From NCBI GenBank assembly GCA_965220065.1, contig OZ244804.1, positions 4,416,915 through 4,480,914 on the forward strand: a DNA stretch of 64,000 nt, given 5' to 3'. The notes beneath the pieces were generated by a model that saw only the letters and a list, made by a program, of their open reading frames with translations, was not told where the DNA came from and did no database searches. Both the position numbers and the translations under genes were made by a program. Below are positions 5,147 to 51,976 of this stretch, piece after piece. Each line of letters opens with the position of its first letter. The stretch's first letter is position 1. This DNA is from Candidatus Poribacteria bacterium. GTDB lineage: Bacteria; Poribacteria; WGA-4E; WGA-3G.

Positions 5147-5156
5147 ACATTGGATA

Positions 5157-5882
5157 TTAACGCAGTTGATTCTGCGTCATATTTTTAAAAAGTTCAGTTT
5201 CTGATATAAAACGGTATTTTAGAAGTGTCCATGCGGCAGAAAATCCATCTGACCAGAATCGGAGTTTCTTGCCCTCCTTCTTCGTGCGCGGGAAATAGGA
5301 AACCGGTACCTCGTAGATACGATAACCCGCACGCAAAATCTTTGCTGTGACCTCCGGACAGAATTCAAATCCTTCACACGTTAAATCTAAACGTGTGATG
5401 AGTTCTGTGGAGAAGGCTTTGTAGCCTGTTGATTCATCGGTAATTCGGCATCCGTAAAGGAGATTTGTGTAGATAGCGAGAATACGATTCGCTATGAAAT
5501 TATGAAGACTGGCGTTCCCTCGCCCATTCAGAAACCTTGATCCGTAGACGACGTGAATGTTCTCCTTTTCCAGTGGTCCCACAAGTTCAGGTAGATCTGC
5601 CGGAGTCAATTCCATGTCTGCATCTTGAATAACGACTACTTCTCCCTTCGCGTATGGAAGCCCGCTCCGAATTGCGAAACCCTTGCCTCTGTTCTCTTGG
5701 CAATGCACGACGGTCAGTTCATAAGTCGCACGCAATTCCTCAAGCACCTTGTAAGTTCCGTCGGTGGAACCGTCGTTGACAACAATCAATTGTTTCTCAA
5801 GTGGCAGGGTACATAGTGCCTCCAGCACCTGTCCGATTGTCTGCTCTTCGTTGAACGCAGGAACGATTACGGATATTAACAT
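5157..5882 (-). CDS. Family 2 glycosyltransferase (DPM1-like / polyprenyl-phosphate sugar synthase-like).
   Basis: It has the GT2 motifs ISVIVPAFNEE, VVNDGSTDGT and VIQDADMEL (DxD). Confidence 0.8.
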   Translation of the reverse strand: MLISVIVPAFNEEQTIGQVLEALCTLPLEKQLIVVNDGSTDGTYKVLEELRATYELTVVHCQENRGKGFAIRSGLPYAKGEVVVIQDADMELTPADLPELVGPLEKENIHVVYGSRFLNGRGNASLHNFIANRILAIYTNLLYGCRITDESTGYKAFSTELITRLDLTCEGFEFCPEVTAKILRAGYRIYEVPVSYFPRTKKEGKKLRFWSDGFSAAWTLLKYRFISETELFKNMTQNQLR

Positions 5883-5909
5883 CGTTCATCATGCCTCCGT
5901 TCAAGTGTA

Positions 5910-6701
5910 TCAGAGTAATGATTTTACCATGCCGCCGTCTACCTGAATCGTAGTGCCGGTGATGTAACTGGCGCGTTCCGATGCCAGAAAAACGACTAAG
6001 GTTGCAAACTCGTCTGGGTCGCCGATTCTACCGAGCGGAATATCTGCAGTCATATTTGCGAGTGCCTCATCAAACGTGATGCCACCCTCTTCTGCACGGA
6101 CGGTCGCGAGTTGTCGGATACGGTCGGTGAAGATAATACCGGGACAGACGTTGTTAACGAGAATTTTATCTGGTGCTAATTCTGTCGCGAGGGTCTTCGC
6201 GAATCCAATCACGCCTGTCCGTGCCATATTGGATAACATAAGTCCATCGACAGGTTGTTTGACAGAGACAGAAGTAAGATTGATAATCCGTCCACCACCA
6301 CGCACCCGCATCGTCGGGACAACAGCGCGACAGAGGTTTATCGTGCTCATCAGGTTCAATTGGACGGCGTCTTGATAGTCCTGTGCCTCCAAGTCATCGA
6401 ACCGTCCGGCTCTGGGTCCACCGGCATTGTTAACCAATATATCAATACCACCGAAGTGCTCTATCGCTGTGCTAATGAGATTTTCAACCTGATCTGGTTG
6501 GCTGACGTCGGTCGGTACCGCTAAAACTTCGGTGTCGGTCTGATTGCGAATGTCATCTGCTGTTGCTTCCAAAGCCTCTTTGTCTCTTGCGCAGATAGTG
6601 ACCTTCGCGCCTTCGTGTGCTAACCCAAGAGCGATCGCGCGCCCAAGTCCTTTGCTTGAGGCACCTACAACTGCAATTTTATCCGTGAGTCCAAGGTTCA
6701 T
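5910..6701 (-). CDS. SDR-family NAD(P)-dependent oxidoreductase (FabG-like).
   Basis: It has the glycine-rich KIAVVGASSKGLGRAIA motif, the NNAG motif and a YxxxK-type catalytic region. Length is 263 aa. Confidence 0.8.
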   Translation of the reverse strand: MNLGLTDKIAVVGASSKGLGRAIALGLAHEGAKVTICARDKEALEATADDIRNQTDTEVLAVPTDVSQPDQVENLISTAIEHFGGIDILVNNAGGPRAGRFDDLEAQDYQDAVQLNLMSTINLCRAVVPTMRVRGGGRIINLTSVSVKQPVDGLMLSNMARTGVIGFAKTLATELAPDKILVNNVCPGIIFTDRIRQLATVRAEEGGITFDEALANMTADIPLGRIGDPDEFATLVVFLASERASYITGTTIQVDGGMVKSLL

Positions 6702-21829: not shown

Positions 21830-22047
21830 TGCGGTTCACTCTCTATATGTCAATTCGTATAGGTTTCAAAATTGTTCTTAATAGACTTAACGTCTTTCTT
21901 ACGACACTGTTTACGAAATAATTCTACACGATTTAAACAGGGAATGCCAATAAAAAACGTGAGGATGGAAGTGTTTTGTGCTTGGAAAATATTATTTGGA
22001 GAAGATAATCCAAGTTTGAATGAGTTGGAGTAATAGTTTTGGGAGAA

Positions 22048-22121
22048 TGGGCGATGCTGGACTTGAACCAGCGACCTCTTGCATGTCAAGCAAACGCTCT
22101 AGCCACCTGAGCTAATCGCCC
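22048..22121 (-). tRNA. tRNA-Val (anticodon GAC).
   Basis: I folded the cloverleaf manually. The acceptor is GGGCGAT/ATCGCCC, the D-arm is GCTC...GAGC, the anticodon loop is TTGACAT and the T-loop is TTCAAGT. Confidence 0.85.
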
Positions 22122-22135
22122 ATCGGAGAAAAGAA

Positions 22136-22210
22136 TGGAGGTGGCGGTCGGAATCGAACCGACGAATAAGAGTTTTGCAGACTCTGGCCTTACCACTTGG
22201 CTACGCCACC
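22136..22210 (-). tRNA. tRNA-Cys (anticodon GCA), with encoded CCA.
   Basis: The acceptor is GGTGGCG/CGCCACC, the anticodon loop is CTGCAAA, the T-arm is GTCGG-TTCGATT-CCGAC and the discriminator is U. Confidence 0.85.
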
Positions 22211-22218
22211 ATAGAAGA

Positions 22219-22293
22219 TGGAGCGGGAGACGAGATTTGAACTCGCGACCTCCACCTTGGCAAGGTGGAGCTCTACCACTGAGCTACTCCCGC
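22219..22293 (-). tRNA. tRNA-Gly (anticodon GCC), with encoded CCA.
   Basis: The acceptor is GCGGGAG/CTCCCGC, the anticodon stem-loop is CCACC-TTGCCAA-GGTGG and the T-loop is TTCAAAT. Confidence 0.85.
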
Positions 22294-40641: not shown

Positions 40642-40716
<75 letters not shown>

Positions 40717-41604: not shown

Positions 41605-44600
41605 ATGAAATTGAAAAAATATAACCCCTTGCAATCTTTGAGTCGTAAGTATCCGAAACTTGCGAGTTTCACCAAAGTAGCATCTTTCTTCTTCGTTGCT
41701 GTGTATATGGCAATAGTGGTTAACTTTGATGTCTCTGCGGCGATCACCGGAAAAATTTCTGGGGTAATCACCGCTGAAGAAACGGATTCCCCGCTTGCGA
41801 CTGTCACGGTAACACTCGTTGGTACAAGCACTACCGCGACAACGAACAGTGCTGGCTATTATGTTATGACCAACGTCCCACCCGGAAGTTATGATGTAAA
41901 GGTCGAGCTCACGGGTTATGCGGCAGAAACTGTAGCGGCGACAAGCGTGCTCGCCGGTCTTACGACAACGTTGGACTTTACCCTAAAGAGTACGGCTGTG
42001 CAACTTGAAGGTATAACGGTAACGGCTGTTAAGCCGCTAATTAAGAAAGATGTCACGCAGTCGACAAGAATCATTGAATCAGATAATATTGAGGCTATGC
42101 CCCGCGATACCGTGAATGGGATTTTACAAACCCTTCCTGGGGTTGCGGTGCTGAACTCAACCGGTTCAACGCATGTTCGCGGGGGTAGGTCAATGGAGAT
42201 TCGGTATCTCATTGATGGTATCCCGATTAATAATCCGATCAGCAGAAGTTTGGGGTTGAGTATCGGCACGAATTCCCTTGAGCAGATGGAGGTCATCACC
42301 GGTGGATTTAATGCGGAGCACGGTGATGCGCAATCCGGTATTGTGAATCTCATCACGAAGGTTGGAACGAATAAATTTTCTGGTAGAGTCCGATACCGAG
42401 TTGGACAGTGGGGGACGCACCACGGCGATCCGTTGTACGGTCCATGGCTTGATCCAGATAATGGATTTCGACCCGTTGCGATTGAACCCTTCAGAGGTAT
42501 CTTTTTTGGGCAACCCTACGACTATCAAAAGCCGTATCGCGGACGGGATGTCACGGTTGCAGAGTTAGCGGAACGCGAAGGCGACGAACAGGTCGTCTTT
42601 ACGGAGATTTTCCCCGGCGTATATGCCGACAGGACAGAAAACCCGCTCCAGCCCGTGATGGACCCAGAAACGGGTGAACCGCAGGTTAACCCCGATACGG
42701 GTGAACCGATTATGACGCGTCAACCTTATAAGGATGCCGATGGTACTGTTATCGACTATGAGAAGAAACAGGTTACTTTGTTAGACGGCTACGTCGTGGA
42801 TCTCGAACAGTATAAGGGATTGTTCAACGACACGAAAAAGTACGAGCTGTCTCCGAGCCATATCGGTGAATTCGCGCTCAGCGGACCGATATGGGGAAAT
42901 CGGTTGACGTTCGCTGTCTCCAGTCAGCTAAGTCGGAATCACAGTTTTTTTCCGAATAGTGGGGGAACGGGATATATCTTCCAAGGAAAGCTGAAGTTTG
43001 AAGTAACACCGAGTCTCAAACTCACTACAAGTGGGCTTTTCAATAGGTCGGAAGGTTACTCCTATGGGGGTTCGCTGCGCTTTTGGCCCAGTGCCGTTCC
43101 GGAGTCAAATTCAAACGCTCGGAATATGTCCGTGCGACTCTCACATAATATCAACTCTGGTACTTTCTATACGTTGACACTTGGGCAATTTCATCGTTCT
43201 GGTGAGGCACATCAACCCGGAAAGGTGTGGGATCCGTTGGAGAAGACGTTTGATGAAAACGCTTGGGATCCCGATAAATCCTTTGAGCAGAATCAGGAAG
43301 AAGGCAGAATCAGGAACCCACCCCAACAGGCATATAACGATACAACCTATTTAGTCGCCGGGGACAGCAATTCTTGGGGAACCAGCACTGCGACAACCTC
43401 AATCGCAAGAGCGGATTTTTCCAGCCAAGTTACGGCGAACCACCTGATCCAGACAGGCGTTGAGTTCTTGGGATACGATCTCTATAATCTCAGCACGACG
43501 AATTACGGAAGCTCCAACCTTTACATGGAGTACTACGATGTCCAACCGCAATCCTTGAGTATGTATCTCCAAGACAAGATGGAGTATGAAGGCATGATCG
43601 TCAACGCCGGGTTACGATATGACCTGTATAATCCATCTGGTGTTTCACCCCAAGACCCGTTTGATCCGCTCGAATTGAACGACGATGGCACCATCAAACT
43701 CGATAAAAGCACCCATAAAGTCGGACTCCCTATCATCAAAGATCCTGTTCAGGCTTCCACCAAACACATGATCGCCCCACGTCTCGGCATCTCCTTCCCG
43801 GTTACCGACCGATCGAAGTTGCACTTCACGTACGGGCATTACTATCAGATTCCACGAGGTGATGATCTCTACGAAAACCTCAATTTTGACATGCGGGGCG
43901 CAATCCGAAGAAGAGGGAATCCTGACTTAGATCCAGAGCGGACGATCGCTTATGAAGTCGGTATCATACGTCAATTCACCGATGACTTGACGATTGACAT
44001 CACCGGATTCACCAAGGATATTGACAAACTCGTCAATAGCGTACACGTTGACATTACCAACGATTATAGCTACTTCCTCAATAGTGAATTCGAGGGAATG
44101 CTCCACGGCATCTATGGTCGGGTGCAAGGGTTTGAACTCACGATTCGCAAATGGCGCACAGGTGGAAGTCCGGTTTCTGGACTGCTCAGTTATACCTATT
44201 CCGTCGCGAAGGGAAAAGGTTCCAGCCGAAATCTGGGCTATCTCACCTACTACCGGCAACAGCCTGACGTAACCGAAAGCCACCCGTTGGCATGGGATCA
44301 ACGTCACATTTTCTCTGGAATGTTGGACATCCAATTGCCATTTGATTCCTCTGTCAATCTGATTGGCAGGTATGGGAGCGGTTTGCCCTACACGCCGAAT
44401 CCGAGAGCACCCGTCAAACCCGACATCAACTCGAAGCGTTACCCGCCGACCTACAATGTGGATGCCCTTATCAGCAAACGGAGTCGGATTGGTGGGTTGA
44501 CTTATACCTTCTTTGCCGACATTCGGAACATCTTCAATACGAAGAATCTCGACGATATCTTAGATGCGGTGACCTATGACCGATACGGTATCCCGCTCAA

Positions 44601-44676
44601 CAGCCAAAAACATTCGCATCCGCTGTCGTGGAGTTCACCACGGTTGATTATGATGGGCGTGAGTCTGGATTTTTAG
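41605..44676 (+). CDS. TonB-dependent receptor-like outer-membrane beta-barrel with an N-terminal carboxypeptidase-regulatory-like domain.
   Basis: A signal/anchor is followed by a CarbopepD_reg-like segment (GVITAEETDSPLATVTVTLVG...GYYVMTNVPPGSYDV), a plug-like region and a long barrel ending in ...GVSLDF (terminal aromatic). Confidence 0.7.
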   Translation: MKLKKYNPLQSLSRKYPKLASFTKVASFFFVAVYMAIVVNFDVSAAITGKISGVITAEETDSPLATVTVTLVGTSTTATTNSAGYYVMTNVPPGSYDVKVELTGYAAETVAATSVLAGLTTTLDFTLKSTAVQLEGITVTAVKPLIKKDVTQSTRIIESDNIEAMPRDTVNGILQTLPGVAVLNSTGSTHVRGGRSMEIRYLIDGIPINNPISRSLGLSIGTNSLEQMEVITGGFNAEHGDAQSGIVNLITKVGTNKFSGRVRYRVGQWGTHHGDPLYGPWLDPDNGFRPVAIEPFRGIFFGQPYDYQKPYRGRDVTVAELAEREGDEQVVFTEIFPGVYADRTENPLQPVMDPETGEPQVNPDTGEPIMTRQPYKDADGTVIDYEKKQVTLLDGYVVDLEQYKGLFNDTKKYELSPSHIGEFALSGPIWGNRLTFAVSSQLSRNHSFFPNSGGTGYIFQGKLKFEVTPSLKLTTSGLFNRSEGYSYGGSLRFWPSAVPESNSNARNMSVRLSHNINSGTFYTLTLGQFHRSGEAHQPGKVWDPLEKTFDENAWDPDKSFEQNQEEGRIRNPPQQAYNDTTYLVAGDSNSWGTSTATTSIARADFSSQVTANHLIQTGVEFLGYDLYNLSTTNYGSSNLYMEYYDVQPQSLSMYLQDKMEYEGMIVNAGLRYDLYNPSGVSPQDPFDPLELNDDGTIKLDKSTHKVGLPIIKDPVQASTKHMIAPRLGISFPVTDRSKLHFTYGHYYQIPRGDDLYENLNFDMRGAIRRRGNPDLDPERTIAYEVGIIRQFTDDLTIDITGFTKDIDKLVNSVHVDITNDYSYFLNSEFEGMLHGIYGRVQGFELTIRKWRTGGSPVSGLLSYTYSVAKGKGSSRNLGYLTYYRQQPDVTESHPLAWDQRHIFSGMLDIQLPFDSSVNLIGRYGSGLPYTPNPRAPVKPDINSKRYPPTYNVDALISKRSRIGGLTYTFFADIRNIFNTKNLDDILDAVTYDRYGIPLNSQKHSHPLSWSSPRLIMMGVSLDF

Positions 44677-44703: not shown

Positions 44704-44952
44704 ATGCGAATACAAGAAATCGCAGAAGCCATAGAAACGTTAAGTCCCACTGATCGGTCCCACTTACGGAGACTATTAAAAGCGCAGGACGAAGCCGATA
44801 AACTGGAAATATTTCATCAAGTCTTGCTGTCGAAAGGCTTAGTTAAAGAAGTGAAAAAGCCTCCTGTCCCTGACACGATTGAACGGCAACTCATTGAGGT
44901 CAACGGGAAACCTGTCTCACAAACAATTATTGAAGAACGGAATAGGCGATGA
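44704..44952 (+). CDS. Putative type II antitoxin (VapB-like), partner of the downstream PIN toxin.
   Basis: It is an 82-aa protein whose stop overlaps the start of the PIN gene by 4 nt (ATGA). Confidence 0.5.
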   Translation: MRIQEIAEAIETLSPTDRSHLRRLLKAQDEADKLEIFHQVLLSKGLVKEVKKPPVPDTIERQLIEVNGKPVSQTIIEERNRR

Positions 44953-45410
44953 TCTACTATATGGATAGTAGTTGTCTTGTTAAACGTTATGTCAGTGAAG
45001 TTGGTTCAGGATGGGTTCTCAGTATCACTAACCCTGTTGCAGGAAACGAAATTTACACTGTCCGCATTACAAGTGTTGAGATTGTTTCTGCCATCTCGCG
45101 GCGGAAACGGGATGGCACAATTATCTCTGCTGATGCAGCAATGGTAATTGCCACCTTGAAAAATGACTTACTGAACGAGTATCAGATTATTGAAGTGACT
45201 GAGCCGCTGGTTAATCGGGCGATGACCTTAGCTGAAACTTATGGTTTACGCGGCTTTGATGCTGTACAGCTTGCAGCAGCATGTGAAGTTCAAGCACTTT
45301 GCATCGCAAGTGGAATTCCGCCGCTCTCTTTTCTCTCAGCAGATAAGGTGCTCAATGCCGCAGCTACAGCTGAAGGACTGTCAGTGGATGATCCAAATGA
45401 CCACCCTTAA
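44949..45410 (+). CDS. vapC: PIN-domain ribonuclease toxin (VapC-like).
   Basis: It has an N-terminal Asp cluster (MIYYMDSSCLVKRY), conserved acidic residues and a ...GFDAVQLAAA segment in a 153-aa protein. Confidence 0.7.
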   Translation: MIYYMDSSCLVKRYVSEVGSGWVLSITNPVAGNEIYTVRITSVEIVSAISRRKRDGTIISADAAMVIATLKNDLLNEYQIIEVTEPLVNRAMTLAETYGLRGFDAVQLAAACEVQALCIASGIPPLSFLSADKVLNAAATAEGLSVDDPNDHP

Positions 45411-45454
45411 ATACAATAAATGTGGGTTTGGATTTTTAAGAAGGAAAATACTGA

Positions 45455-46240
45455 ATGAAGAAAATCAACATTGCAGAGGCTGATGTGATCACTGTGGCGA
45501 CGCGGCTAAAACAGTTATCACCTAATATCCCCGGATTCGGATCCGTCGATCCTGCATGGACGCGCCCCCCTGCTGTTCTTGTCATTGACTGTGTCCTTTC
45601 GCTCAACAGGAATTACGACACGTTCTTAGTTCCACGTCTGAAAACTTTCATGAGTAACCATCCTGAGACACAGCGGATAACCGACTTGGCTAAGTTGATG
45701 GCGAGTTACCCAACGCCCCATGCGTTCGTGCAACAGGAACTCAATTACAAGCACGAAAGCCGCGCAAGGACACTTCAGGCTGTCGTGGACTTCGTGTGCC
45801 AAATCGTTGAGGGAACACAAACTATTCAGGCAGAAAAAGAGGTTCTTAAACAGTGGGCAATTCTGGCTAAACCGTCGGACTACCAAACGCTAAACATCCG
45901 GGGTTTTGGGATCGCCGGTTTTCAGTACCTTCGAATGCTCTTTGGCGCGGACACTACAAAACCTGATGTACACATTATTGGATTTCTATCTGAGCTCTTG
46001 AACCGGAGGATCTCGGAGGTTGAGGCACTTCGCCTTTTGGAAGCAGCGTCTGAAAGTGTAGGGCTTTCTGTCCGGGACGTTGACACATACGTCTGGCAAA
46101 TTAGGGCGCGTGGAGAGCAAAATGCTGATGAGACAAACGCTGTTCGACTTGATCCAGACATTGCCGCCGCTTTTCCTACTGCAAAAGCCGTTAATGAAGC
46201 TTTGCGATCTGTGTTGAAAGAGAGAGGTAAGAAGAAATAA
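45455..46240 (+). CDS. Hypothetical protein with a divergent helix-hairpin-helix (HhH-GPD-like) segment.
   Basis: The segment LNIRGFGIAGFQYLRMLFGADTTKPDVHIIGFL resembles the HhH-GPD motif of EndoIII/DNA-glycosylase superfamily proteins (LpGVG...vDtHV). I recognise nothing else in the protein. Confidence 0.35.
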   Translation: MKKINIAEADVITVATRLKQLSPNIPGFGSVDPAWTRPPAVLVIDCVLSLNRNYDTFLVPRLKTFMSNHPETQRITDLAKLMASYPTPHAFVQQELNYKHESRARTLQAVVDFVCQIVEGTQTIQAEKEVLKQWAILAKPSDYQTLNIRGFGIAGFQYLRMLFGADTTKPDVHIIGFLSELLNRRISEVEALRLLEAASESVGLSVRDVDTYVWQIRARGEQNADETNAVRLDPDIAAAFPTAKAVNEALRSVLKERGKKK

Positions 46241-46274
46241 CTGTGTCTGTAACGATTGAGGGCATAACAGTCAA

Positions 46275-47105
46275 ATGAAGCATCAGGAAACAATACCGTT
46301 ATCAAATATTTACAATCGAGAAGAAGATTTCTCTACAGATCTTGCTAATAATCTTGATATTCTCAAAGTTGGCAGTTTTGAAGACGTGGAGACGGAATCC
46401 AACGTCGGGACACGCAGAGCAGATATTGTCGCTGTCGGTGAGGATGGCATCCTCGTGGTTGAAAATCAGTTTGGGAAGGCAGATTGGGATCATTGGGGCA
46501 GACTTGAGGCTTACGCCCGATTGAAAAAAGCCAATGTTGCTGTGCTGGTAGCTGAAGACTTTGAGGAAGTAATGATTGTTACTTGCAATCTACGCAATGA
46601 AGACAGCAGAATTGACTGGTATCTCATTCAAGCACAGGCGAATGGACACAAAGAACTTTCATTTCATCACGTTGCTCGACCTGCAATAGATATTCAAACC
46701 GAGAGACAACTGGACACTGAATATGATGAATTCTGGGCACCGATTCGCAGTGGTGAACTCGGAAAAGTGTTTATGGGACCACCTATGTCTGATCACAATA
46801 ACGGCTGGATGGGTAATAAAACTATTCCCGGTGTAGAAGTGTGGCTTAGACTTATTAACCAGAAATGCTATGTTCGATTGTACTTTCTGAAACCTAACCC
46901 CTTTGAACGCCGAGACAAGATCATGGAGTTATTTCCGGGATCGGAATACGATTACGAATACAAGGATACACCCACCCGTACAACGGTGATTTTTCCTGTC
47001 ATTAACAAAGGCAAAAACGACCGCGATGATTGGGATGAAATTCGCGAGAAATTAGTTGCCACGGGCACCGATATCTACAATAAAATCAACGAATCTAACC
47101 TATAG
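46275..47105 (+). CDS. Paralog A: NucS/PD-(D/E)xK-like N-terminal domain fused to a conserved ~140-aa C-terminal domain of unknown function.
   Basis: The N-terminal RRADIVAVGEDGILVVENQFGKAD resembles the GEIDLLA..G.LVVIElK core of NucS/RecB-like nucleases, but the canonical Lys is not in place. The C-terminal blocks HHVARPAIDIQTE, EFWAPIRSG, ERRDKIMELFP, VIFPVINKGKNDRDDWDEIRE and GTDIYNKINESNL are shared with the downstream paralog. Confidence 0.5.
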   Translation: MKHQETIPLSNIYNREEDFSTDLANNLDILKVGSFEDVETESNVGTRRADIVAVGEDGILVVENQFGKADWDHWGRLEAYARLKKANVAVLVAEDFEEVMIVTCNLRNEDSRIDWYLIQAQANGHKELSFHHVARPAIDIQTERQLDTEYDEFWAPIRSGELGKVFMGPPMSDHNNGWMGNKTIPGVEVWLRLINQKCYVRLYFLKPNPFERRDKIMELFPGSEYDYEYKDTPTRTTVIFPVINKGKNDRDDWDEIREKLVATGTDIYNKINESNL

Positions 47106-47230
47106 CCACTAAAGTTTGAATGATTCGTATTGCGTGCATATTGAGTTTTCAAGGCGTTCTCTATTTTTCTGTGAGTTTTGCACAAAGCGGTAACTCATAA
47201 ACAAAAAGATTTCAAGCAGAGAGAAGCGCA

Positions 47231-47257
47231 GCCCCAGCGGGGCGGCATCTGTATAAC
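47231..47257. repeat. Second copy of the GCCCCnnnGGGGCGGCATCTGTATAAC repeat.
   Basis: It matches 16650-16679 and lies about 25 nt upstream of the paralog-B start. Confidence 0.55.
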
Positions 47258-47281
47258 GTAAAACACTAAAAGGAAATCGAA

Positions 47282-48250
47282 ATGCTAAATGTAGGCGAAC
47301 AACTTGTATCTTCATACCTACGATACATCCGGGGTTGTGATTTTATCCAAACGAATTTGTACACGATCGAATCCCAAGGCGAAATTGACGTTGTCGGATT
47401 GAACATGGTGGAACAACAAGTCTACATTTGTGAGGTAGCCATTCACCTAACAACTGGACTCCAGTACGTCAAAAACAAGAGACCCAACAATGTGCAGAAA
47501 CTTACCGATAAGTTCTCCAGAGACATTGAATACGCACAAAAATACTTTGATAAACACAATCAACATTTTATGCTTTGGAGCCCGATAGTTAAAGACACAA
47601 AAGGAAAGCCTGAATACAATCAAATGCGGCATCTCGCAGAAATTAAAGCAAATATCAAAAGGCAGTATGACGTTGATATTGAATGCATAGTTAACGAAAA
47701 GTTTTACGCCTGTTTAGAAGAGTTAAGACTTCATGCAGCGGCCCAAACTGTCGCACTCCAATGTCCCTTGATGCGTTTAATGCAAATAGAGGAACTTTTG
47801 GGTAAACATGTATCAAATCATCACGCCACGCGACCGGCAATGAATATCCAAACTCAGAAGAAAACCGAGCGGGAATACAGTGAATTCTGGGCCCCGATTC
47901 GCTCTGGAGACAGTTTATTTGCGGGAAAGCCTGTCCCTATCCGAGACGAAGGTTGGGTACGTAAGAATATCCGCAATATCGGTGTGACACTCTTTCTTAA
48001 CAACCAACAATGCTATATTTTGTTGTACTTTGAAGGAGAAAATCCCTTAGAGCGTAGGGACCGGATCATGACGCTATTTCCAAAATCAGATTATATTTGG
48101 GAATGTAAGGATTCACCTAAGGAGACAAAAGTTATATTCCCAGTCCTTGACAAAGGTAAGAAGAATCGAGACGATTGGGATGAGATTCGAGAAACATTAG
48201 TCAACATGGGCACCGACATTTACAGTAAAATCAACGAGTCTGACTTATAG
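47282..48250 (+). CDS. Paralog B: NucS/PD-(D/E)xK-like N-terminal domain plus the same conserved C-terminal domain as paralog A.
   Basis: The N-terminal core is GEIDVVGLNMVEQQVYICEVAIH. The C-terminal blocks are HHATRPAMNIQTQ, EFWAPIRSG, ERRDRIMTLFP, VIFPVLDKGKKNRDDWDEIRE and GTDIYSKINESDL. Confidence 0.5.
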   Translation: MLNVGEQLVSSYLRYIRGCDFIQTNLYTIESQGEIDVVGLNMVEQQVYICEVAIHLTTGLQYVKNKRPNNVQKLTDKFSRDIEYAQKYFDKHNQHFMLWSPIVKDTKGKPEYNQMRHLAEIKANIKRQYDVDIECIVNEKFYACLEELRLHAAAQTVALQCPLMRLMQIEELLGKHVSNHHATRPAMNIQTQKKTEREYSEFWAPIRSGDSLFAGKPVPIRDEGWVRKNIRNIGVTLFLNNQQCYILLYFEGENPLERRDRIMTLFPKSDYIWECKDSPKETKVIFPVLDKGKKNRDDWDEIRETLVNMGTDIYSKINESDL

Positions 48251-48260
48251 TACACGACTT

Positions 48261-48749
48261 ATGGATTATACCATTATAGAAGCCGGTATTGACGATGTCG
48301 AAGCCATCGTGGATGTGACATTCCAAAGTTTTGAGGACGCGTTCAACAAACTGTTCTACATGGAACGTGAAGTCGCTGTCCACAGATGGAAAGCGTATAT
48401 GCGAAAGGAGCATCATCCGCGAGACGCAAAAGACCCTCGGATTGTTTACATCGCAATCGCCGATGGAAAGATAGTAGGTTTCGTTGCGGGACATCTGACA
48501 AAACGGCTCGGATTGGAAGGTGAACTCCAATCTATCTATGTTCTCCCGAAGTTCCAGGGACAGGGACTCGGAACGCAATTAGTCATTGTCCTTGCGAAGT
48601 GGTTCAAAAAGTGGGATGCGAAAGAGGTCTGTGTCGATCACAAGAACGGTAGTGAGGGTTTTTACATCAAACTGGGGGCGAGGTTCAACGATCACGGATG
48701 GTTGGTATGGGACAATTTTTTTGATGTCCTTGCGTATGAGAAAGCATAA
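48261..48749 (+). CDS. GNAT-family N-acetyltransferase.
   Basis: It has the acetyl-CoA binding region ...IYVLPKFQGQGLGTQLV... in a 162-aa protein. Confidence 0.7.
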   Translation: MDYTIIEAGIDDVEAIVDVTFQSFEDAFNKLFYMEREVAVHRWKAYMRKEHHPRDAKDPRIVYIAIADGKIVGFVAGHLTKRLGLEGELQSIYVLPKFQGQGLGTQLVIVLAKWFKKWDAKEVCVDHKNGSEGFYIKLGARFNDHGWLVWDNFFDVLAYEKA

Positions 48750-48788
48750 GGGACGACTACGAAATGATATCTGTTAAAGAGGTTATGT

Positions 48789-49418
48789 ATGCCGTTTGTT
48801 GCTGAATTGTATTTTGATCCCGCAACCGAGGAGTGCATTCGCGATGCGTGGAAAGCCATTGATGAAGCAGGAATTAGTGATTCTATGCCCAAAGGTGGTT
48901 ATCGCCCACATATATCGCTTGGGATTTGCGAGCATCTTGAACTCGAGGCGTTTGCGAAGGAACTTTCAACCTTTGCGGCGGGTATTACGCCGTTTCGATT
49001 GTCGTTCCCCAATATAGGTATTTTTTCTACATCGGAAGGGGTCGTTTACTTGGGCGCAACGGCAACCAAGCAATTGCTGAATCTACACACGAAATTTCAT
49101 GAAATCTTCAAGAAATACGCAAAGGAGCAACGCGAATATTACACTGTTGGACAGTGGGTGCCGCACTGCACACTCGCTTTTGGTTTGTCAGAGGACCAGA
49201 TCGCTGAAGCAGTAAACGTTTGTCGGCAGATTGATTTACCCGTTTCCACGGAAATCAAGGAGATTGGAGTGATGGAGGTTTCTCCTACGGATTGTCGCAC
49301 GCTATCTTCGTTTAGTCTCAAAACGAGTGATAGCATTGAACTGGATGACGAATTACGCCCCGAATACGACGAAACACTGCTAAAAAACGGCATTCAGGGG
49401 AAATACGCGAAACAGTAA
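48789..49418 (+). CDS. 2H phosphoesterase superfamily protein (LigT / 2'-5' RNA ligase-like).
   Basis: It has two H-x-S/T-x motifs (PHISLG and PHCTLA) with the spacing typical of the 2H fold. Confidence 0.6.
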   Translation: MPFVAELYFDPATEECIRDAWKAIDEAGISDSMPKGGYRPHISLGICEHLELEAFAKELSTFAAGITPFRLSFPNIGIFSTSEGVVYLGATATKQLLNLHTKFHEIFKKYAKEQREYYTVGQWVPHCTLAFGLSEDQIAEAVNVCRQIDLPVSTEIKEIGVMEVSPTDCRTLSSFSLKTSDSIELDDELRPEYDETLLKNGIQGKYAKQ

Positions 49419-49443
49419 ATGATCAATAAGGGAAAAATTTACC

Positions 49444-49839
49444 ATGAGAATATATGAATTCACACTCATTTTAACAGTCGACCCAAATGAAGAAGAAACC
49501 GATCGGCTCTACAGTATCTTTGACGATGGGACAATTGCCACGATTGGCGGGGTGCCGCGGATTCATTTTCACCGTGAGGCATTTTCGTTGGAGTCCGCAG
49601 TTGTTTCGGCACTCTTGGATATTCAAAAGGCAGGTTTTGATGCTGACCATGTGCATATTAAACCGAAGGTTGTCCTTGGCACAGTAGGCAGTATAGATTT
49701 ACGCGAGCGCGGTATTGACGAAGCACAGGCGGCAGAAATGCGGGCACGTCTCGCTTCCTTTGCCGAAGATTGGGAAAGTCCCGAGATGGATGCCTATGAC
49801 AACTATGACGAGGAAAAAGCCAAGTTACAAACGCGGTGA
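49444..49839 (+). CDS. Hypothetical acidic-tailed protein, a candidate antitoxin for the downstream MazF/PemK-like toxin.
   Basis: It is a 131-aa protein with a C-terminal acidic stretch DWESPEMDAYDNYDEEKAK. Its 3' end overlaps the toxin gene start region. Confidence 0.4.
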   Translation: MRIYEFTLILTVDPNEEETDRLYSIFDDGTIATIGGVPRIHFHREAFSLESAVVSALLDIQKAGFDADHVHIKPKVVLGTVGSIDLRERGIDEAQAAEMRARLASFAEDWESPEMDAYDNYDEEKAKLQTR

Positions 49840-50164
49840 TGTCATTCTATCACGTTTTCCGGATTCCAATTTGCATACAGCCAAACTACGTCCGGGATTA
49901 ATCGTTCAAGCGGACAATCTTCAAACCAATTTGCCGCAACTGATTGTAGCGATGATTACCAGCAAGATGTTCCGTGCTAATCACCTGAGCCGTGTTACCA
50001 TTTTAGTTTCCACACCGGAGGGGCAACAATCTGGATTAATCATGGACTCGGTAGTGATGACTGATAATCTTGCCACAGTTGTTGAAGCAACCATTGAACG
50101 GGTTGTTGGCTCGATTCCAATGAAAAAAATTAACATAGCTTTGCGGCATACCTTGAATCTATAA
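49805..50164 (+). CDS. MazF/PemK-family endoribonuclease toxin.
   Basis: The region ...KRGDVILSRFPDSN....RPGLIVQADNLQ...LIVAMITSK...IMDSVVMTDNLATV follows the PemK/MazF pattern. The start was chosen at the internal ATG at 49805 to give the usual ~119 aa. The ORF-track start at 49715 is the alternative. Confidence 0.6.
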   Translation: MTRKKPSYKRGDVILSRFPDSNLHTAKLRPGLIVQADNLQTNLPQLIVAMITSKMFRANHLSRVTILVSTPEGQQSGLIMDSVVMTDNLATVVEATIERVVGSIPMKKINIALRHTLNL

Positions 50165-50170
50165 CCGTTG

Positions 50171-51976
50171 ATGGATATTGACGGAGCACGCTTAAACAGC
50201 GAATTTACACTCGTAAAAATCGTCCTACTCTGTATTCTGATTGCCTCAGCGGTTTTAGTGCTGCGGAATCTCGGACATAGTGGGATTACGTATTGGGACG
50301 AAGGGTTTCACGCCGTCGTTGCACGGAATTTGACGAAACATCCGCTCAAATTCACGCTCTACGATCAACCGTGGCTCCCTTATGACTACAAAGGTTGGGG
50401 TGAGAACCATATCTGGCTCCATAAACCGCCTGTCGCCATGTGGACGATCTGGCTCTCGCACCTTCTTTTCGGTATCAATACGTTCGCGCTCCGGTTGCCA
50501 TCTGCAATCAGTTTGGTTGTGACGACGTGGTTGACATTCCGAATTGCTGCGGATCTCTTTGACAAACGGGCAGGACTCATTGCGGCATTCCTCCAGGCGT
50601 TTAACCCGTTTCTCTTTGAGTCCGTTCACGGCTATCGTTATTCGGATCACATCGACATCGCTTTGTTGCTCTGGGTACAGGTTTCGTGTTGGTTCCTGCT
50701 CCGTGCGATTCGGACAGGCAAACGGCGAAATTACATCTTATCCGGCGTTGCAATGGGTGTTGCGTATCTGTCGAAAAGCTACCTCGCACTCATCACTTTT
50801 GGCATCGCGCTTGTCGTTTGGTGTGTTAAGTGGGCCAGGCAAATCTATCGCGAGAGATGTGTCTCGGATAATAGCGCGCAAAACGAGGTGCAAGAAGCAA
50901 AAATTCGTCTCAGGGACATCGGTTTACAACTCTTAGCCGCACTTGCGACGGTGGCACCGTGGGTCATCTATTGCCTGATTTACTATCGCAAGGAATTCCT
51001 TTGGGAACATAAACGCGTGTTGGATCACCTCAACACCGATGTCGAGAGTTGGGGAGCAAGTTGGGACCGACCGTTGTTTGATTACATGCCGCTGTTTTAT
51101 CCGGTGTTCTATGCCGCACTCATTGCGGCGGTGTTGTGTCTGATAGTCGTCCTGTTCAAACGGTGGCAGTTAGCAGAACTTTTCGTGTTAGCGTGGGGTA
51201 TCGGCGTGATTGTCCCGCATACACTCGCAGAGACGAAAACGCCATCGGCGACGATGATTGCCGTGCCACCGCTACTGATGTGTCTCGCCGCGGTCATCAG
51301 CCGAGCATGGCAACGACGGGATTGGGTTTACACCTCTATTTGGATGGCGGGAATGCTTGCGGTGACTATCATCTCTGGTGGACGTACGCTCGTCCAGAGT
51401 CGTGACCAGTTTGATGGACTCAAAAAGATCGCACCCTTTATCCAAACGAATTTCTGGATTGTTGAGCAACTGATCGGATTTGGCGTACTATTGGCAATTT
51501 TCGCGGGTGTGTACATGCTGGTTCGCCACCGCAATGTGCAAAGATGGATATGGTTTGGTCTCCGAACCGTGGCACTGATAATTGCGTTATTCTATGCAGG
51601 ACGCTATGTGCATGCCGCTTACAGCGTCACAGAACGGAATAGTCAAGTCCCTCTATATGAAACGAGTGGACCACGTCTCCAACGTGAAATGCCAGAGAAC
51701 GCCTGTTTCTTTCTTGACGATGAGCGTGTTGGGGCACATTTCGATTTGATGTATTACGCAGATCGGTCAACGTATCAGATTTACAATAAGCACATGAAGA
51801 AGCCTCGCGATTTCAAGAGCCAAGCCAAGATAGCTCGTGAAGCCGGTGCAATTCCCTATCTTTTCTCTGTCAAAGAGACAGTCTACAATTATCCGCTGTT
51901 CATTGAAGATGAAGTGGACATCGGGAATGGAAAAATGCAACAGTATCGGGTTTTTGAAATTACGGAAACCCGATGA
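50171..51976 (+). CDS. GT-C fold glycosyltransferase (ArnT / PMT-like, GT39/83-type) integral membrane protein.
   Basis: It has about 12+ transmembrane helices. A DEG motif with an acidic first loop (YWDEGFHAV) sits near the N-terminus, as in ArnT/PMT lipid-linked sugar transferases. Length is about 600 aa. Confidence 0.65.
   Translation: MDIDGARLNSEFTLVKIVLLCILIASAVLVLRNLGHSGITYWDEGFHAVVARNLTKHPLKFTLYDQPWLPYDYKGWGENHIWLHKPPVAMWTIWLSHLLFGINTFALRLPSAISLVVTTWLTFRIAADLFDKRAGLIAAFLQAFNPFLFESVHGYRYSDHIDIALLLWVQVSCWFLLRAIRTGKRRNYILSGVAMGVAYLSKSYLALITFGIALVVWCVKWARQIYRERCVSDNSAQNEVQEAKIRLRDIGLQLLAALATVAPWVIYCLIYYRKEFLWEHKRVLDHLNTDVESWGASWDRPLFDYMPLFYPVFYAALIAAVLCLIVVLFKRWQLAELFVLAWGIGVIVPHTLAETKTPSATMIAVPPLLMCLAAVISRAWQRRDWVYTSIWMAGMLAVTIISGGRTLVQSRDQFDGLKKIAPFIQTNFWIVEQLIGFGVLLAIFAGVYMLVRHRNVQRWIWFGLRTVALIIALFYAGRYVHAAYSVTERNSQVPLYETSGPRLQREMPENACFFLDDERVGAHFDLMYYADRSTYQIYNKHMKKPRDFKSQAKIAREAGAIPYLFSVKETVYNYPLFIEDEVDIGNGKMQQYRVFEITETR

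What the first reader, a model, noticed from the sequence alone, without database searches (positions are those of the whole stretch)
46275..48250. Two adjacent paralogs pairing a NucS-like PD-(D/E)xK-type N-terminus with a shared uncharacterised C-terminal domain, a candidate defence or nucleic-acid-processing module
The two genes have different N-terminal halves. Each has a beta-strand pair resembling the GEIDLLA..G.LVVIE(L)K core of NucS/RecB-family nucleases (A: RRADIVAVGEDGILVVENQFGK; B: GEIDVVGLNMVEQQVYICEVAIH), but neither has the canonical Lys directly after the Glu. Their C-terminal ~140 aa are nearly collinear (HH.(A/T)RPA(I/M)(D/N)IQT, EFWAPIRSG, ERRD(K/R)IM.LFP, VIFPV(I/L)(N/D)KGK(N/K)(D/N)RDDWDEIRE, GTDIY(N/S)KINES(N/D)L). 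A duplicated, diverged nuclease-like pair inside a toxin-antitoxin-rich accessory island is the genomic signature of many recently described anti-phage systems. The shared C-terminal domain may correspond to an existing DUF, or it may be undescribed.
Basis: partly seen in the sequence, partly recalled or inferred. Interest (0 to 1): 0.72.

Follow-up and report, generated by a model that had tools for sequence, protein, structure and literature searches.

The report
Two adjacent DUF4268-type restriction-like nucleases
Two neighbouring genes in a sponge-symbiont (Poribacteria) genome each join a different DNA-cutting domain to the same fast-evolving domain, an architecture recently shown elsewhere to destroy phage DNA carrying modified bases, so they are probably two independent anti-phage nucleases rather than a new kind of system.

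Summary
ORF A (46275-47105, 276 aa) and ORF B (47282-48250, 322 aa) share only their C-terminal ~160 aa (55% identity, E 2e-58).

- **A** is a divergent member of the PADLOC candidate PDC-S11. This is the NucS-like nuclease + DUF4268 architecture shown experimentally as MdgA (2025) and Madara (2026) to be a single-gene, modification-dependent anti-phage nuclease. A keeps the family's D...E-N-Q site.
- **The shared C-domain** is a divergent DUF4268: Pfam misses it, but hhalign gives 95.8%, E 7e-9. Its predicted fold is YbjN/T3SS-chaperone-like.
- **Not an obligate pair.** A sits in a syntenic variable slot (TonB receptor ... PMT_2) in about 80 species-level genomes, mostly Poribacteria. B's N-domain is in 2 of those 80 loci, and B occupies the slot without A in two other genomes.

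Most likely these are two independent type IV-like restriction nucleases. That is a new variant of a known kind, of moderate interest. No function was tested here.

The parts
46275..47105 (+). Gene A, 276 aa: divergent PDC-S11 / MdgA / Madara-type protein (NucS-like nuclease + DUF4268-like domain)
   Evidence: ORF. PADLOC PDC-S11 model PDLC04914, E 3.8e-21, A residues 5-232. Collinear BLASTP to a bona fide PDC-S11/DUF4268 protein of Sinorhizobium over A 5-263, E 4e-15. About 690 homologues, the top 120 at 69-100% identity, in Poribacteria where a source names the organism.
46275..46628 (+). A N-domain (aa 1-118): NucS-like PD-(D/E)xK nuclease. Putative site E41, D50 (46422-46424), E63 (46461-46463), Q65 (46467-46469).
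46629..46718 (+). A linker (aa 119-148), predicted disordered
   Evidence: pLDDT below 50 for residues 96-149. The same linker sequence is found in the B-type protein P0129.
46719..47102 (+). A C-domain (aa 149-276): divergent DUF4268, alpha-beta-beta-beta-alpha-beta-beta-alpha, YbjN/T3SS-chaperone-like fold. Inferred to be the sensor or specificity domain.
47282..48250 (+). Gene B, 322 aa: chimera of an uncharacterised PD-(D/E)xK domain and a copy of the A-type C-domain
   Evidence: ORF. About 30 full-length clusters; the three with a source name are Poribacteria. AF2 mean pLDDT 82.6. dN/dS 0.06-0.23 in both domains.
47282..47818 (+). B N-domain (aa 1-179): PD-(D/E)xK fold closest to AF1548 and the FokI cleavage domain. 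Invariant E6, E34, D36 (47387-47389), E51 (47432-47434), H55, K77 (47510-47512); Ala at the canonical Lys position.
47819..47869 (+). B linker (aa 180-196)
   Evidence: pLDDT below 50 for residues 180-196.
47870..48247 (+). B C-domain (aa 197-322): second copy of the DUF4268-like domain
   Evidence: 55-61% identical to A's C-domain. C-domain identities A-A 0.56, B-B 0.65, A-B 0.58, so B's copy nests within the diversity of A-type domains.
45455..46240 (+). Upstream gene 'unk261' (261 aa, no family). A possible third N-terminal module of the same system type; here it has no C-domain.
   Evidence: Its residues 1-236 are 63% identical to the N-part of L023:5166-6284 (373 aa), which ends in the same C-domain. 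No Pfam or PDB hit even with a profile.
44704..50164 (.). Variable island between the TonB-dependent receptor (41605-44676) and the PMT_2 glycosyltransferase (50168-51976)
   Evidence: Of 80 loci (mostly Poribacteria), TonB lies upstream in 62 and PMT_2 downstream in 55. The genes between them vary: LigT 49, unk131 47, unk261 37, MazF 21, GNAT 9, PIN 8. Pfam assignments.

Best explanation
A and B are two separate single-protein restriction-like nucleases of the 'nuclease + DUF4268' type, that is, type IV-like and modification-dependent. They sit side by side in a variable defence slot of a Poribacteria chromosome.

In each protein the C-terminal DUF4268-like domain is inferred to be the target-recognition module. 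In the characterised relatives the target is phage DNA carrying hypermodified bases. The N-terminal PD-(D/E)xK domain, probably acting as a dimer, is inferred to cleave the recognised DNA.

A is the lineage's long-resident PDC-S11/MdgA/Madara-type gene. B arose when a horizontally mobile stand-alone PD-(D/E)xK gene replaced the N-half of a duplicated copy of A. The cell therefore holds two different cutters with two diverged sensor variants (about 55-61% identical).

**Shown here:** the domain architecture, homology to PDC-S11 and DUF4268, the PD-(D/E)xK fold of B's N-domain, retention of putative catalytic residues, purifying selection on both genes, faster evolution of the C-domain, the modular spread of the C-domain, and the lack of obligate A-B linkage.

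**Inferred only:** nuclease activity, dependence on DNA modification, the sensor role of the C-domain, and dimerisation.
For: 1. **A belongs to PDC-S11.** PADLOC E 3.8e-21. The N-domain profile matches at 99.15%, E 4e-19, with D50/E63-N-Q65 aligned to the family's D...E-N-Q. ENQ is universal in bona fide PDC-S11 sequences.
2. **The C-domain is a divergent DUF4268.** Collinear BLASTP to a Pfam-positive DUF4268 protein. hhalign 95.8%, E 7e-9 over 112 columns.
3. **Experiments on relatives.** MdgA (NucS + DUF4268) and MdgB (PD(D/E)XK + DUF4268) are each sufficient for defence against T4 but not unmodified T4-GT7. Purified MdgA degrades T4 DNA far better than T4-GT7 DNA, and E77A abolishes this (bioRxiv 10.1101/2025.02.28.640651). 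PDC-S11 'Madara' restricts T4(5ghmC) but not T4(C), and D63A abolishes defence (bioRxiv 10.64898/2026.09.05.749240). DUF4268 also decorates GmrSD type IV enzymes (PMC4619093).
4. **B's N-domain is a restriction-endonuclease fold**. E6, E34, D36, E51, H55 and K77 are invariant down to 26-32% identity in archaea and Bacillota.
5. **The C-domain subfamily is a swappable module.** It is fused to HSDR_N (5 representatives), HEPN_Swt1 (4), RAMA, 5'-3' exonuclease-N, TPR, a receiver domain, unk261, the NucS-like domain and B's N-domain. One such protein is cargo of an integrase element.
6. **Selection.** Both genes are under purifying selection (dN/dS 0.06-0.29). The C-domain evolves about 2.5 times faster than the nuclease domain, and its variable part is the beta-sheet 169-240.
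7. **Independence.** B's N-domain is in 2 of 80 A loci. B is present without A in L089 and L091 and with A in the window and L090. Tandem extra copies of A or of its C-domain occur in several species.
8. **Setting.** Low-GC, TA-rich variable island.
Against: - No biochemical or phage data exist for A, B or any member of this divergent C-domain subfamily.
- A scores only 73.6 bits against PDC-S11 models, where true members score 200-455 bits. Pfam DUF4268 does not detect the C-domain at E<=0.1.
- B lacks the canonical Lys (E-V-A) in every family member. B has no PADLOC hit.
- A is kept at one syntenic position across about 80 species with dN/dS 0.10. Such stability is unusual for a defence gene.
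- dS values are near saturation, so the dN/dS figures are rough.
- A's N-domain model is of low confidence.
Confidence: 0.55

Rival explanations
1. A and B form an obligate two-component system. Their similar C-domains heterodimerise, bringing two different nuclease domains together for double-strand cleavage, in the manner of a FokI-like or BspD6I-like heterodimer.
For: The genes are adjacent, on the same strand, and 176 bp apart. The A-then-B order recurs in L090. B's N-domain resembles the FokI and BspD6I cleavage domains, which work as dimers or heterodimers. A tandem PDC-S11 pair also exists in Sinorhizobium.
Against: B's N-domain occurs in only 2 of 80 A loci, and there it is not fused to the C-domain. 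B-type genes occupy the slot without A in L089 and L091. A occurs alone in most species. MdgA, MdgB and Madara each work as single genes. No multimer prediction was possible with these tools.
Confidence: 0.1
2. The C-domain senses something other than modified DNA, for example a phage protein or peptide. This would fit its YbjN/T3SS-chaperone-like fold. The nuclease would then act as an abortive-infection effector.
Confidence: 0.15
3. A is a housekeeping DNA-repair or DNA-maintenance nuclease of Poribacteria, analogous to NucS/EndoMS, and B is an accessory variant. Neither is a defence gene.
Against: The NucS model score is 11 bits against a cutoff of 216. The match covers only NucS's nuclease domain (profile 126-197), and A has a DUF4268-like C-domain instead. 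Family membership is with PDC-S11, which has a shown defence phenotype. The slot around A is variable and TA-rich. A is tandemly duplicated and domain-shuffled in several species, and its C-domain evolves fast. These are defence-like traits.
Confidence: 0.1
4. B is catalytically inactive. Its N-domain lacks the Lys of (D/E)xK. B would then act as a DNA-binding regulator, decoy or inhibitor of A rather than as a nuclease.
For: Ala replaces the canonical Lys in all 34 + 8 family members examined. Some homologues carry an HTH-like C-terminus instead of the DUF4268-like domain (P0237, P0221, P0157; my reading of the sequences, not tested against a family library). No defence-library hit.
Against: E6, E34, D36 and E51 are invariant, as are H55 and K77, which could replace the Lys. 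Known PD-(D/E)xK enzymes tolerate substitutions at the Lys position, for example Gln in BglII (established knowledge), and Gln is the norm in PDC-S11. Very strong conservation (58-88% across phyla) fits an enzyme.
Confidence: 0.1

Closest known systems
PDC-S11 (PADLOC candidate) = 'Madara' of E. coli ECOR34 (bioRxiv 10.64898/2026.09.05.749240)
   Same: A shares the single-polypeptide architecture: N-terminal NucS-like PD-(D/E)xK domain, linker, C-terminal DUF4268-type domain. It hits the PDC-S11 HMMs, and its catalytic D...E-N-Q aligns.
   Different: A is shorter (276 aa against about 315). It scores 73.6 bits where true members score 200-455. Its C-domain falls outside the Pfam DUF4268 model. 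A is chromosomal and syntenic across a phylum rather than patchy. Here the C-domain's predicted fold matched YbjN/T3SS chaperones, whereas the authors describe theirs as 'distantly EVE-like'. B does not hit PDC-S11 at all.
MdgA and MdgB (bioRxiv 10.1101/2025.02.28.640651)
   Same: Two unrelated nuclease domains (NucS-like; another PD(D/E)XK), each combined with DUF4268. Each is sufficient for modification-dependent defence. This is the same logic as A and B.
   Different: MdgA and MdgB came from different organisms, not from adjacent genes. MdgA has E77-N-K where A has E-N-Q (primer sequence). Whether MdgB's nuclease is related to B's N-domain could not be checked, because no sequence is held.
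GmrSD / BrxU-type type IV restriction enzymes with an extra DUF4268 domain (PMC4619093, PMC5714182)
   Same: DUF4268 is an accessory C-terminal domain on nucleases that target glucosyl-hmC DNA.
   Different: The nuclease modules are DUF262 (ParB-like) and DUF1524 (HNH), with NTPase activity. None of these is present in A or B.
NucS / EndoMS mismatch endonuclease
   Different: The score is far below the cutoff (11 bits against 216). The match covers only NucS's nuclease domain, and A carries a DUF4268-like domain after its nuclease domain. A has Gln at the motif's third position (E63-N-Q65) where the canonical (D/E)xK motif has Lys.
FokI cleavage domain / AF1548 (PDB 2fok, 1y88) and N.BspD6I
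   Different: Only 11-15% sequence identity. B has E-V-A instead of D-x-K. The recognition domain is C-terminal and DUF4268-like.
MspJI / AspBHI / SRA- and EVE-type modification-dependent enzymes
   Different: Their reader domains (SRA-like) are unrelated in fold to the DUF4268-like domain.

Membership tests
PDC-S11 / Madara / MdgA (gene A) | Match to the PADLOC PDC-S11 profile HMMs | tested here: met
   PDLC04914 E 3.8e-21 (A 5-232), PDLC04911 2.5e-16, PDLC04912 2.1e-14. The match is weak compared with true members at 200-455 bits. PADLOC's own score and coverage cut-offs were not applied.
PDC-S11 / Madara / MdgA (gene A) | N-terminal NucS-like PD-(D/E)xK domain with catalytic Asp and Glu | tested here: met
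   hhalign 99.15%, E 4e-19. D50 and E63-N-Q65 align with the family's D and E-N-Q. That these positions equal Madara D63 and MdgA E77 is inferred from spacing, not from an alignment.
PDC-S11 / Madara / MdgA (gene A) | C-terminal DUF4268 domain (PF14088) | tested here: inconclusive
   The Pfam HMM gives no hit at E<=0.1. Profile-profile comparison gives 95.8%, E 7e-9, and BLASTP is collinear with a Pfam-positive protein. A is homologous but lies outside the curated model.
PDC-S11 / Madara / MdgA (gene A) | A single gene is sufficient for modification-dependent phage restriction | not testable with these tools
   Needs plaque assays with T4, T4(hmC) and T4(C).
PDC-S11 (gene B) | Match to PDC-S11 HMMs, or a NucS-like N-domain | tested here: not met
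   No PADLOC hit at E<=1. hhalign of B's N-domain against the PDC-S11 N-domain gives 0.2%. B is not a PDC-S11 member, although it shares the C-domain.
DUF4268 (PF14088), shared C-domain | Score above the Pfam gathering threshold (27 bits) | tested here: not met
   A and B have no DUF4268 hit at E<=0.1. DUF4268 is absent from the 25 families listed for the 50 subfamily representatives, a list that reaches down to single-member families, so at most one member matches it.
DUF4268 (PF14088), shared C-domain | Remote homology by profile-profile comparison, same position in the protein, same conserved Trp pattern | tested here: met
   hhalign 95.8%, E 7e-9, 112 columns. FW/WW, sW(I/M)G and (D/E)W motifs are aligned.
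NucS / EndoMS | NCBIfam NF003270 above cutoff, and a two-domain NucS architecture | tested here: not met
   11.1 bits against a cutoff of 216. Only A 12-83 aligns, to NucS positions 126-197.
PD-(D/E)xK nuclease superfamily (B N-domain) | Restriction-endonuclease-like alpha-beta-beta-beta-alpha-beta fold | tested here: met
PD-(D/E)xK nuclease superfamily (B N-domain) | Canonical D...(D/E)xK catalytic motif | tested here: inconclusive
   D36 and E51 are invariant but the Lys position is Ala. H55 and K77 are invariant candidates to replace it.
Type II toxin-antitoxin pair (A/B) | A small antitoxin and a toxin, overlapping or tightly coupled, matching TA family models | tested here: not met
   No TA family hit for A or B. 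The intergenic gap is 176 bp. The TA genes in the island are separate (PIN, PemK).

The most novel reading that the evidence does not exclude
The DUF4268-like domain may be a general, swappable sensor cassette with a YbjN/T3SS-chaperone-like fold, not an EVE/SRA-type base reader. It appears combined with at least eight different N-terminal modules: two DNase types, HSDR_N, HEPN RNase, a PIN-like exonuclease, RAMA, TPR or receiver domains, and the unknown unk261.

In Poribacteria, one chromosomal slot has kept a resident copy (A) over phylum-level time. That slot serves as a site where new effector heads are grafted onto duplicated sensor tails.

Under this reading A could have a quasi-housekeeping role. 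It might police modified or foreign DNA in a filter-feeding sponge host. Alternatively, the domain might recognise a ligand other than modified DNA.
Probability: 0.15. Interest if true: 0.65.

Novelty: new variant of a known kind. Interest (0 to 1): 0.4.

Why it matters
Nuclease + DUF4268 proteins have only just been shown (2025-2026 preprints) to be modification-dependent anti-phage nucleases. What DUF4268 itself does is still unknown.

This locus adds four things:
- A divergent DUF4268 subfamily that Pfam does not detect.
- A new fusion partner: a widespread, uncharacterised PD-(D/E)xK family with a non-canonical active site.
- A natural case in which the same sensor-type domain is grafted onto different effector heads within a single chromosomal slot.
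- A comparison across about 80 species showing where the domain varies (the beta-sheet 169-240) and where it is fixed (FWxPIR, DDWDEIR).

Together these give concrete residues and chimeras for testing whether DUF4268 is the specificity module. They also extend this defence type to sponge symbionts, whose phages and DNA modifications are largely unknown.

The locus does not reveal a new kind of system.

Tried and rejected
- **Family libraries.** Pfam, NCBIfam and PHROGs scans of A, B and unk261 gave nothing significant.
- **PDB sequence searches.** A, B and unk261 as single sequences, and an unk261 profile, gave nothing.
- **afdb50 fold search.** The library was not available, so no AlphaFold-DB neighbours or UniProt names were obtained.
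- **Conserved partner for stand-alone homologues of B's N-domain.** Contexts differ each time: a hypothetical-rich island, next to IS605 TnpB, inside a prophage head module, on archaeal and Bacillota megaplasmids. No partner was found.
- **Phage origin.** A has no relatives in IMG/VR. B's N-domain has none in INPHARED phages and only 5 on IMG/VR viral contigs, within 2-5 kb of a contig end in the four long ones.
- **Operon signals.** Promoter and terminator scans were at chance level. No Rfam hit over 41-53 kb. No inverted repeats or att-like repeats in the island.
- **Positive selection.** Pairwise NG86 found no dN/dS above 1 in the C-domain, only relaxed constraint. dS is near saturation, and no site-model test was run.
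- **unk261 as a DNA glycosylase.** The idea came from my reading of 'GFGIAGFQYLRMLFGADTTKPDVHII' as HhH-GPD-like. It got no support from Pfam or PDB profile searches and remains untested.
- **EVE-like fold.** The fold reported for Madara's C-domain was not seen: no EVE, PUA or YTH hit appears in the top 50-60 hits listed by each fold search.
- **Taxonomy of other C-domain fusion proteins.** Cluster look-up returned almost no names.
Full report
**1. Observation**

A is 46275..47105 (+, 276 aa) and B is 47282..48250 (+, 322 aa), separated by 176 bp.
- BLASTP aligns only the C-terminal parts: A117-276 with B166-322, 55% identity, E 2e-58.
- The last 210 nt of the two genes are still 72% identical as DNA.
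- The N-terminal halves are unrelated in sequence (hhalign probability below 1%).
- The quoted motifs are present.
- The surrounding genes match the description: a small gene plus a PIN toxin (44704-45410), a 261-aa unknown (45455-46240), GNAT (48261-48749), a 2'-5' RNA ligase/LigT-like gene (48789-49418), and a 131-aa gene plus PemK/MazF (49444-50164).
- GC falls to 0.43 over 46-49 kb.

**2. What A is**

Pfam, NCBIfam and PHROGs give nothing significant for A. PADLOC's candidate system PDC-S11 matches A at E 3.8e-21 over residues 5-232.

tblastn of A against plasmids finds genes annotated 'DUF4268 domain-containing protein'. These are strong PDC-S11 members (200-455 bits) with Pfam DUF4268 in their last 140 residues. 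A aligns collinearly with one of them, from Sinorhizobium, over A 5-263.

Profile-profile comparison confirms both halves:
- N-domain: 99.15%, E 4e-19.
- C-domain: 95.8%, E 7e-9.

A's D50 and E63-N-Q65 align with the family's D...E-N-Q. 'ENQ' is present in 120 of 120 PDC-S11 and 119 of 120 A-family sequences.

**3. What is known about that family**

Two recent preprints characterise it.
[quoted passage not shown] Each alone protects E. coli from T4 but not from unmodified T4-GT7. Purified MdgA degrades T4 DNA far better than T4-GT7 DNA, and E77A abolishes this. The mutagenic primer encodes V-I-V-E-N-K (10.1101/2025.02.28.640651).
- *Madara.* PDC-S11 of E. coli ECOR34 was renamed Madara. It restricts T4(5ghmC) but not T4(C), and D63A abolishes defence. 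The authors describe its C-domain as distantly EVE-like (10.64898/2026.09.05.749240).

Earlier bioinformatic work found DUF4268 as an accessory domain of GmrSD type IV enzymes and predicted that it binds DNA (PMC4619093, PMC5714182).

**4. What B is**

The AF2 model of B is good (mean pLDDT 82.6): N-domain 1-179, a disordered linker 180-196, and C-domain 197-322.

In sequence, this domain is a family with no entry in any of the libraries searched. It occurs mainly as a stand-alone 180-210 aa protein.
- It is remarkably conserved: 58-88% identity to B in Steroidobacter, Variovorax, Accumulibacter and Billgrantia.
- More distant copies, at 26-32% identity, lie on Rossellomorea and haloarchaeal plasmids.
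- Its neighbourhoods differ every time: hypothetical-rich islands, next to IS605 TnpB, inside a prophage head module, beside transposases.
- Across all of these, E6, E34, D36, E51, H55 and K77 are invariant, while the canonical Lys position is always Ala. I read this as an active but non-canonical site.
- A few homologues carry what reads as an HTH-like tail instead of the DUF4268-like domain (my reading, not tested against a family library).

**5. B is a chimera built on a copy of A**
- In the B-type protein P0129, the linker contains A's own linker sequence, QAQANSHNELSFHHVARPAIDIQTEK.
- C-domain identities are A-A 0.56, B-B 0.65 and A-B 0.58, so B's C-domain nests within A-type diversity.
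- Full-length B-type proteins form only about 30 clusters; the three that carry a source name are Poribacteria.
- The four B-type loci examined, the window included, all lie in the same chromosomal slot as A.
- B-type genes are under purifying selection in both domains (dN/dS 0.06-0.23), so B is not a decaying fusion.

**6. The locus across genomes**

A scan of one genome per species found 96 relatives of A. Most of the 80 kept loci are from Poribacteria, and a few come from MAGs labelled Latescibacteria, Neomarinimicrobiota, Phycisphaeraceae or Binatia.
- In the 80 loci, the TonB-dependent receptor gene lies upstream in 62 and the PMT_2 glycosyltransferase gene downstream in 55. The small genes between them vary from species to species.
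- B's N-domain is present in only 2 of the 80 loci. There it lies upstream of A and is not fused to the C-domain.
- Among other genomes carrying B-type genes, L090 has A followed by B. L089 and L091 have B in the slot without A.
- Several species have tandem extra copies of A (three in L049) or extra C-domain genes.

A and B are therefore not an obligate pair. The slot is a place where this gene type is duplicated and rebuilt.

**7. The C-domain as a module**

An exhaustive HMMER search with the A/B C-domain profile found only 86 representatives at 50% clustering. None of the N-terminal or partner domains below is shared by all of them:

| Partner domain | Representatives |
|---|---|
| HSDR_N (PD-(D/E)xK) | 5 |
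| HEPN_Swt1 | 4, one also with a DprA winged helix |
| RAMA | 1 |
| 5'-3' exonuclease N | 1 |
| TPR | 3 |
| Receiver domain | 1 |
| None (stand-alone 110-170 aa forms) | several |

- In L023, the window's upstream gene unk261 supplies the N-part of a 373-aa protein ending in the same C-domain.
- L039 has a HEPN(RNRASH)-coil-C-domain-winged-helix protein in the slot.
- One HSDR_N fusion is cargo of an integrase/HTH_17/AAA_25 element.

Structurally the domain is alpha-beta-beta-beta-alpha-beta-beta-alpha. Its nearest solved folds are:
- E. coli YbjN by Foldseek (probability 0.96, E 9.5e-3).

No EVE, PUA, SRA or YTH hit appears. These similarities are weak, and no DUF4268 structure appears to have been solved.

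**8. Evolutionary rates**

Among 82 A orthologues, mean pairwise identity is 77% for the N-domain, 70% for the linker and 56% for the C-domain. The C-domain is the more divergent in 98% of pairs.

| Region of A | NG86 dN/dS |
|---|---|
| N-domain | 0.10 |
| Linker | 0.17 |
| C-domain | 0.24 |
| C-domain core, 169-240 | 0.29 |

 dS is about 1.2, close to saturation, so these values are rough. The flanks of the C-domain (EFWxPIR, DDWDEIRxxLV...GTDIY) are fixed and the beta-sheet between them varies. This fits a recognition surface that diversifies on a conserved scaffold. It equally fits relaxed constraint, and no site-level test was run.

**9. Mechanism proposed**

Each protein is a self-contained, type IV-like nuclease. 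The DUF4268-like domain recognises the target, most likely hypermodified phage DNA by analogy with MdgA, MdgB and Madara. The tethered PD-(D/E)xK domain, probably dimerising as FokI-like and NucS-like domains do, cleaves it. Carrying two cutters with two sensor variants that are 55-61% identical would broaden or back up coverage.

Architecture, homology, fold, residue conservation, selection and lack of linkage are shown. Activity, modification dependence, the sensor role and dimerisation are inferred. Confidence is about 0.55, higher for A than for B.

**10. Rivals**
- An obligate A-B heterodimer (0.1). Co-occurrence argues against it.
- A protein- or ligand-sensing abortive-infection nuclease (0.15). 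The chaperone-like fold and the non-DNase fusions favour it. MdgA's in vitro discrimination of DNA argues against it.
- A housekeeping repair role for A (0.1). Phylum-wide synteny and strong constraint favour it. PDC-S11 membership, the variable TA-rich slot, and duplication and shuffling argue against it.
- An inactive or regulatory B (0.1). The missing Lys favours it. The invariant acidic residues plus H55 and K77 argue against it.

**11. Verdict**

This is a defence-type nuclease locus, and the 'unknown' domain is a divergent DUF4268. It is not a duplicated nuclease pair or a two-gene module, and the architecture has already been described and tested in relatives.

Novelty: a new variant of a known kind. 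What is new is B's fusion, the divergent DUF4268 subfamily, and the syntenic shuffling slot in Poribacteria. Interest 0.4.

Noticed in passing
window 45455-46240 (+); L023:5166-6284: The 261-aa gene directly upstream of A has no family assignment. Its first ~236 residues form the N-part of a 373-aa protein in another Poribacteria genome that ends in the same DUF4268-like domain. It may be a third effector head of this system type. A stretch 'GFGIAGFQYLRMLFGADTTKPDVHII' looks HhH-GPD-like to me, but Pfam and PDB profile searches gave no support.
   Followed up: partly
window 49326-49418 (LigT tail) and 46100-46219 (unk261 tail); L090:7954-8187: The last ~30 aa of the LigT-like protein (DDELRPEYDETLLKNGIQGKY) and residues 216-255 of unk261 (VRLDPDIAAAFPTAKAVNEALR) are the two halves of a 77-aa ORF. 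In L090 that ORF follows a BrnT toxin gene. Fragments of a BrnA-like antitoxin therefore appear fused to the 3' ends of two unrelated genes in this island, a sign of frequent recombination there.
   Followed up: partly
L039:4999-6516: In the same slot of another Poribacteria genome lies a 505-aa protein. It combines a HEPN-like RNRASH motif, a coiled coil, the DUF4268-like domain and a C-terminal DprA-type winged helix (the same architecture as P0244).
   Followed up: partly
L092:3965-4915 and 5032-5967 (Sinorhizobium fredii pSfreGR64c): Two adjacent full-length PDC-S11/DUF4268 paralogs (316 and 311 aa) sit on a rhizobial megaplasmid. Tandem pairs of this gene type therefore recur outside Poribacteria.
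   Followed up: partly
L049:7001-9916; L088:7001-8500: Three tandem copies of A lie in one Poribacteria genome. Their C-domains are only 61-77% identical to each other. Another genome has two copies.
   Followed up: partly
L006-L008:6001-6627 (Accumulibacter): A stand-alone homologue of B's N-domain sits between the prohead protease and the major capsid gene of a prophage-like head module, in a moron-like position.
   Followed up: no
L103:4130-5203: An HSDR_N + DUF4268-like protein (P0265) lies next to AAA_25, HTH_17 and a phage-type integrase. This looks like cargo of a small integrative element.
   Followed up: no
window 46000-49000: GC content is 0.43 here, against 0.45-0.49 in the neighbouring windows and up to 0.53 elsewhere in the window. 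This is consistent with horizontally acquired or AT-rich island DNA.
   Followed up: no
window 22047-22293 (-) and 40642-40716 (+): A tRNA-Val/Cys/Gly cluster and a tRNA-Pro gene. Neither borders the island.
   Followed up: no
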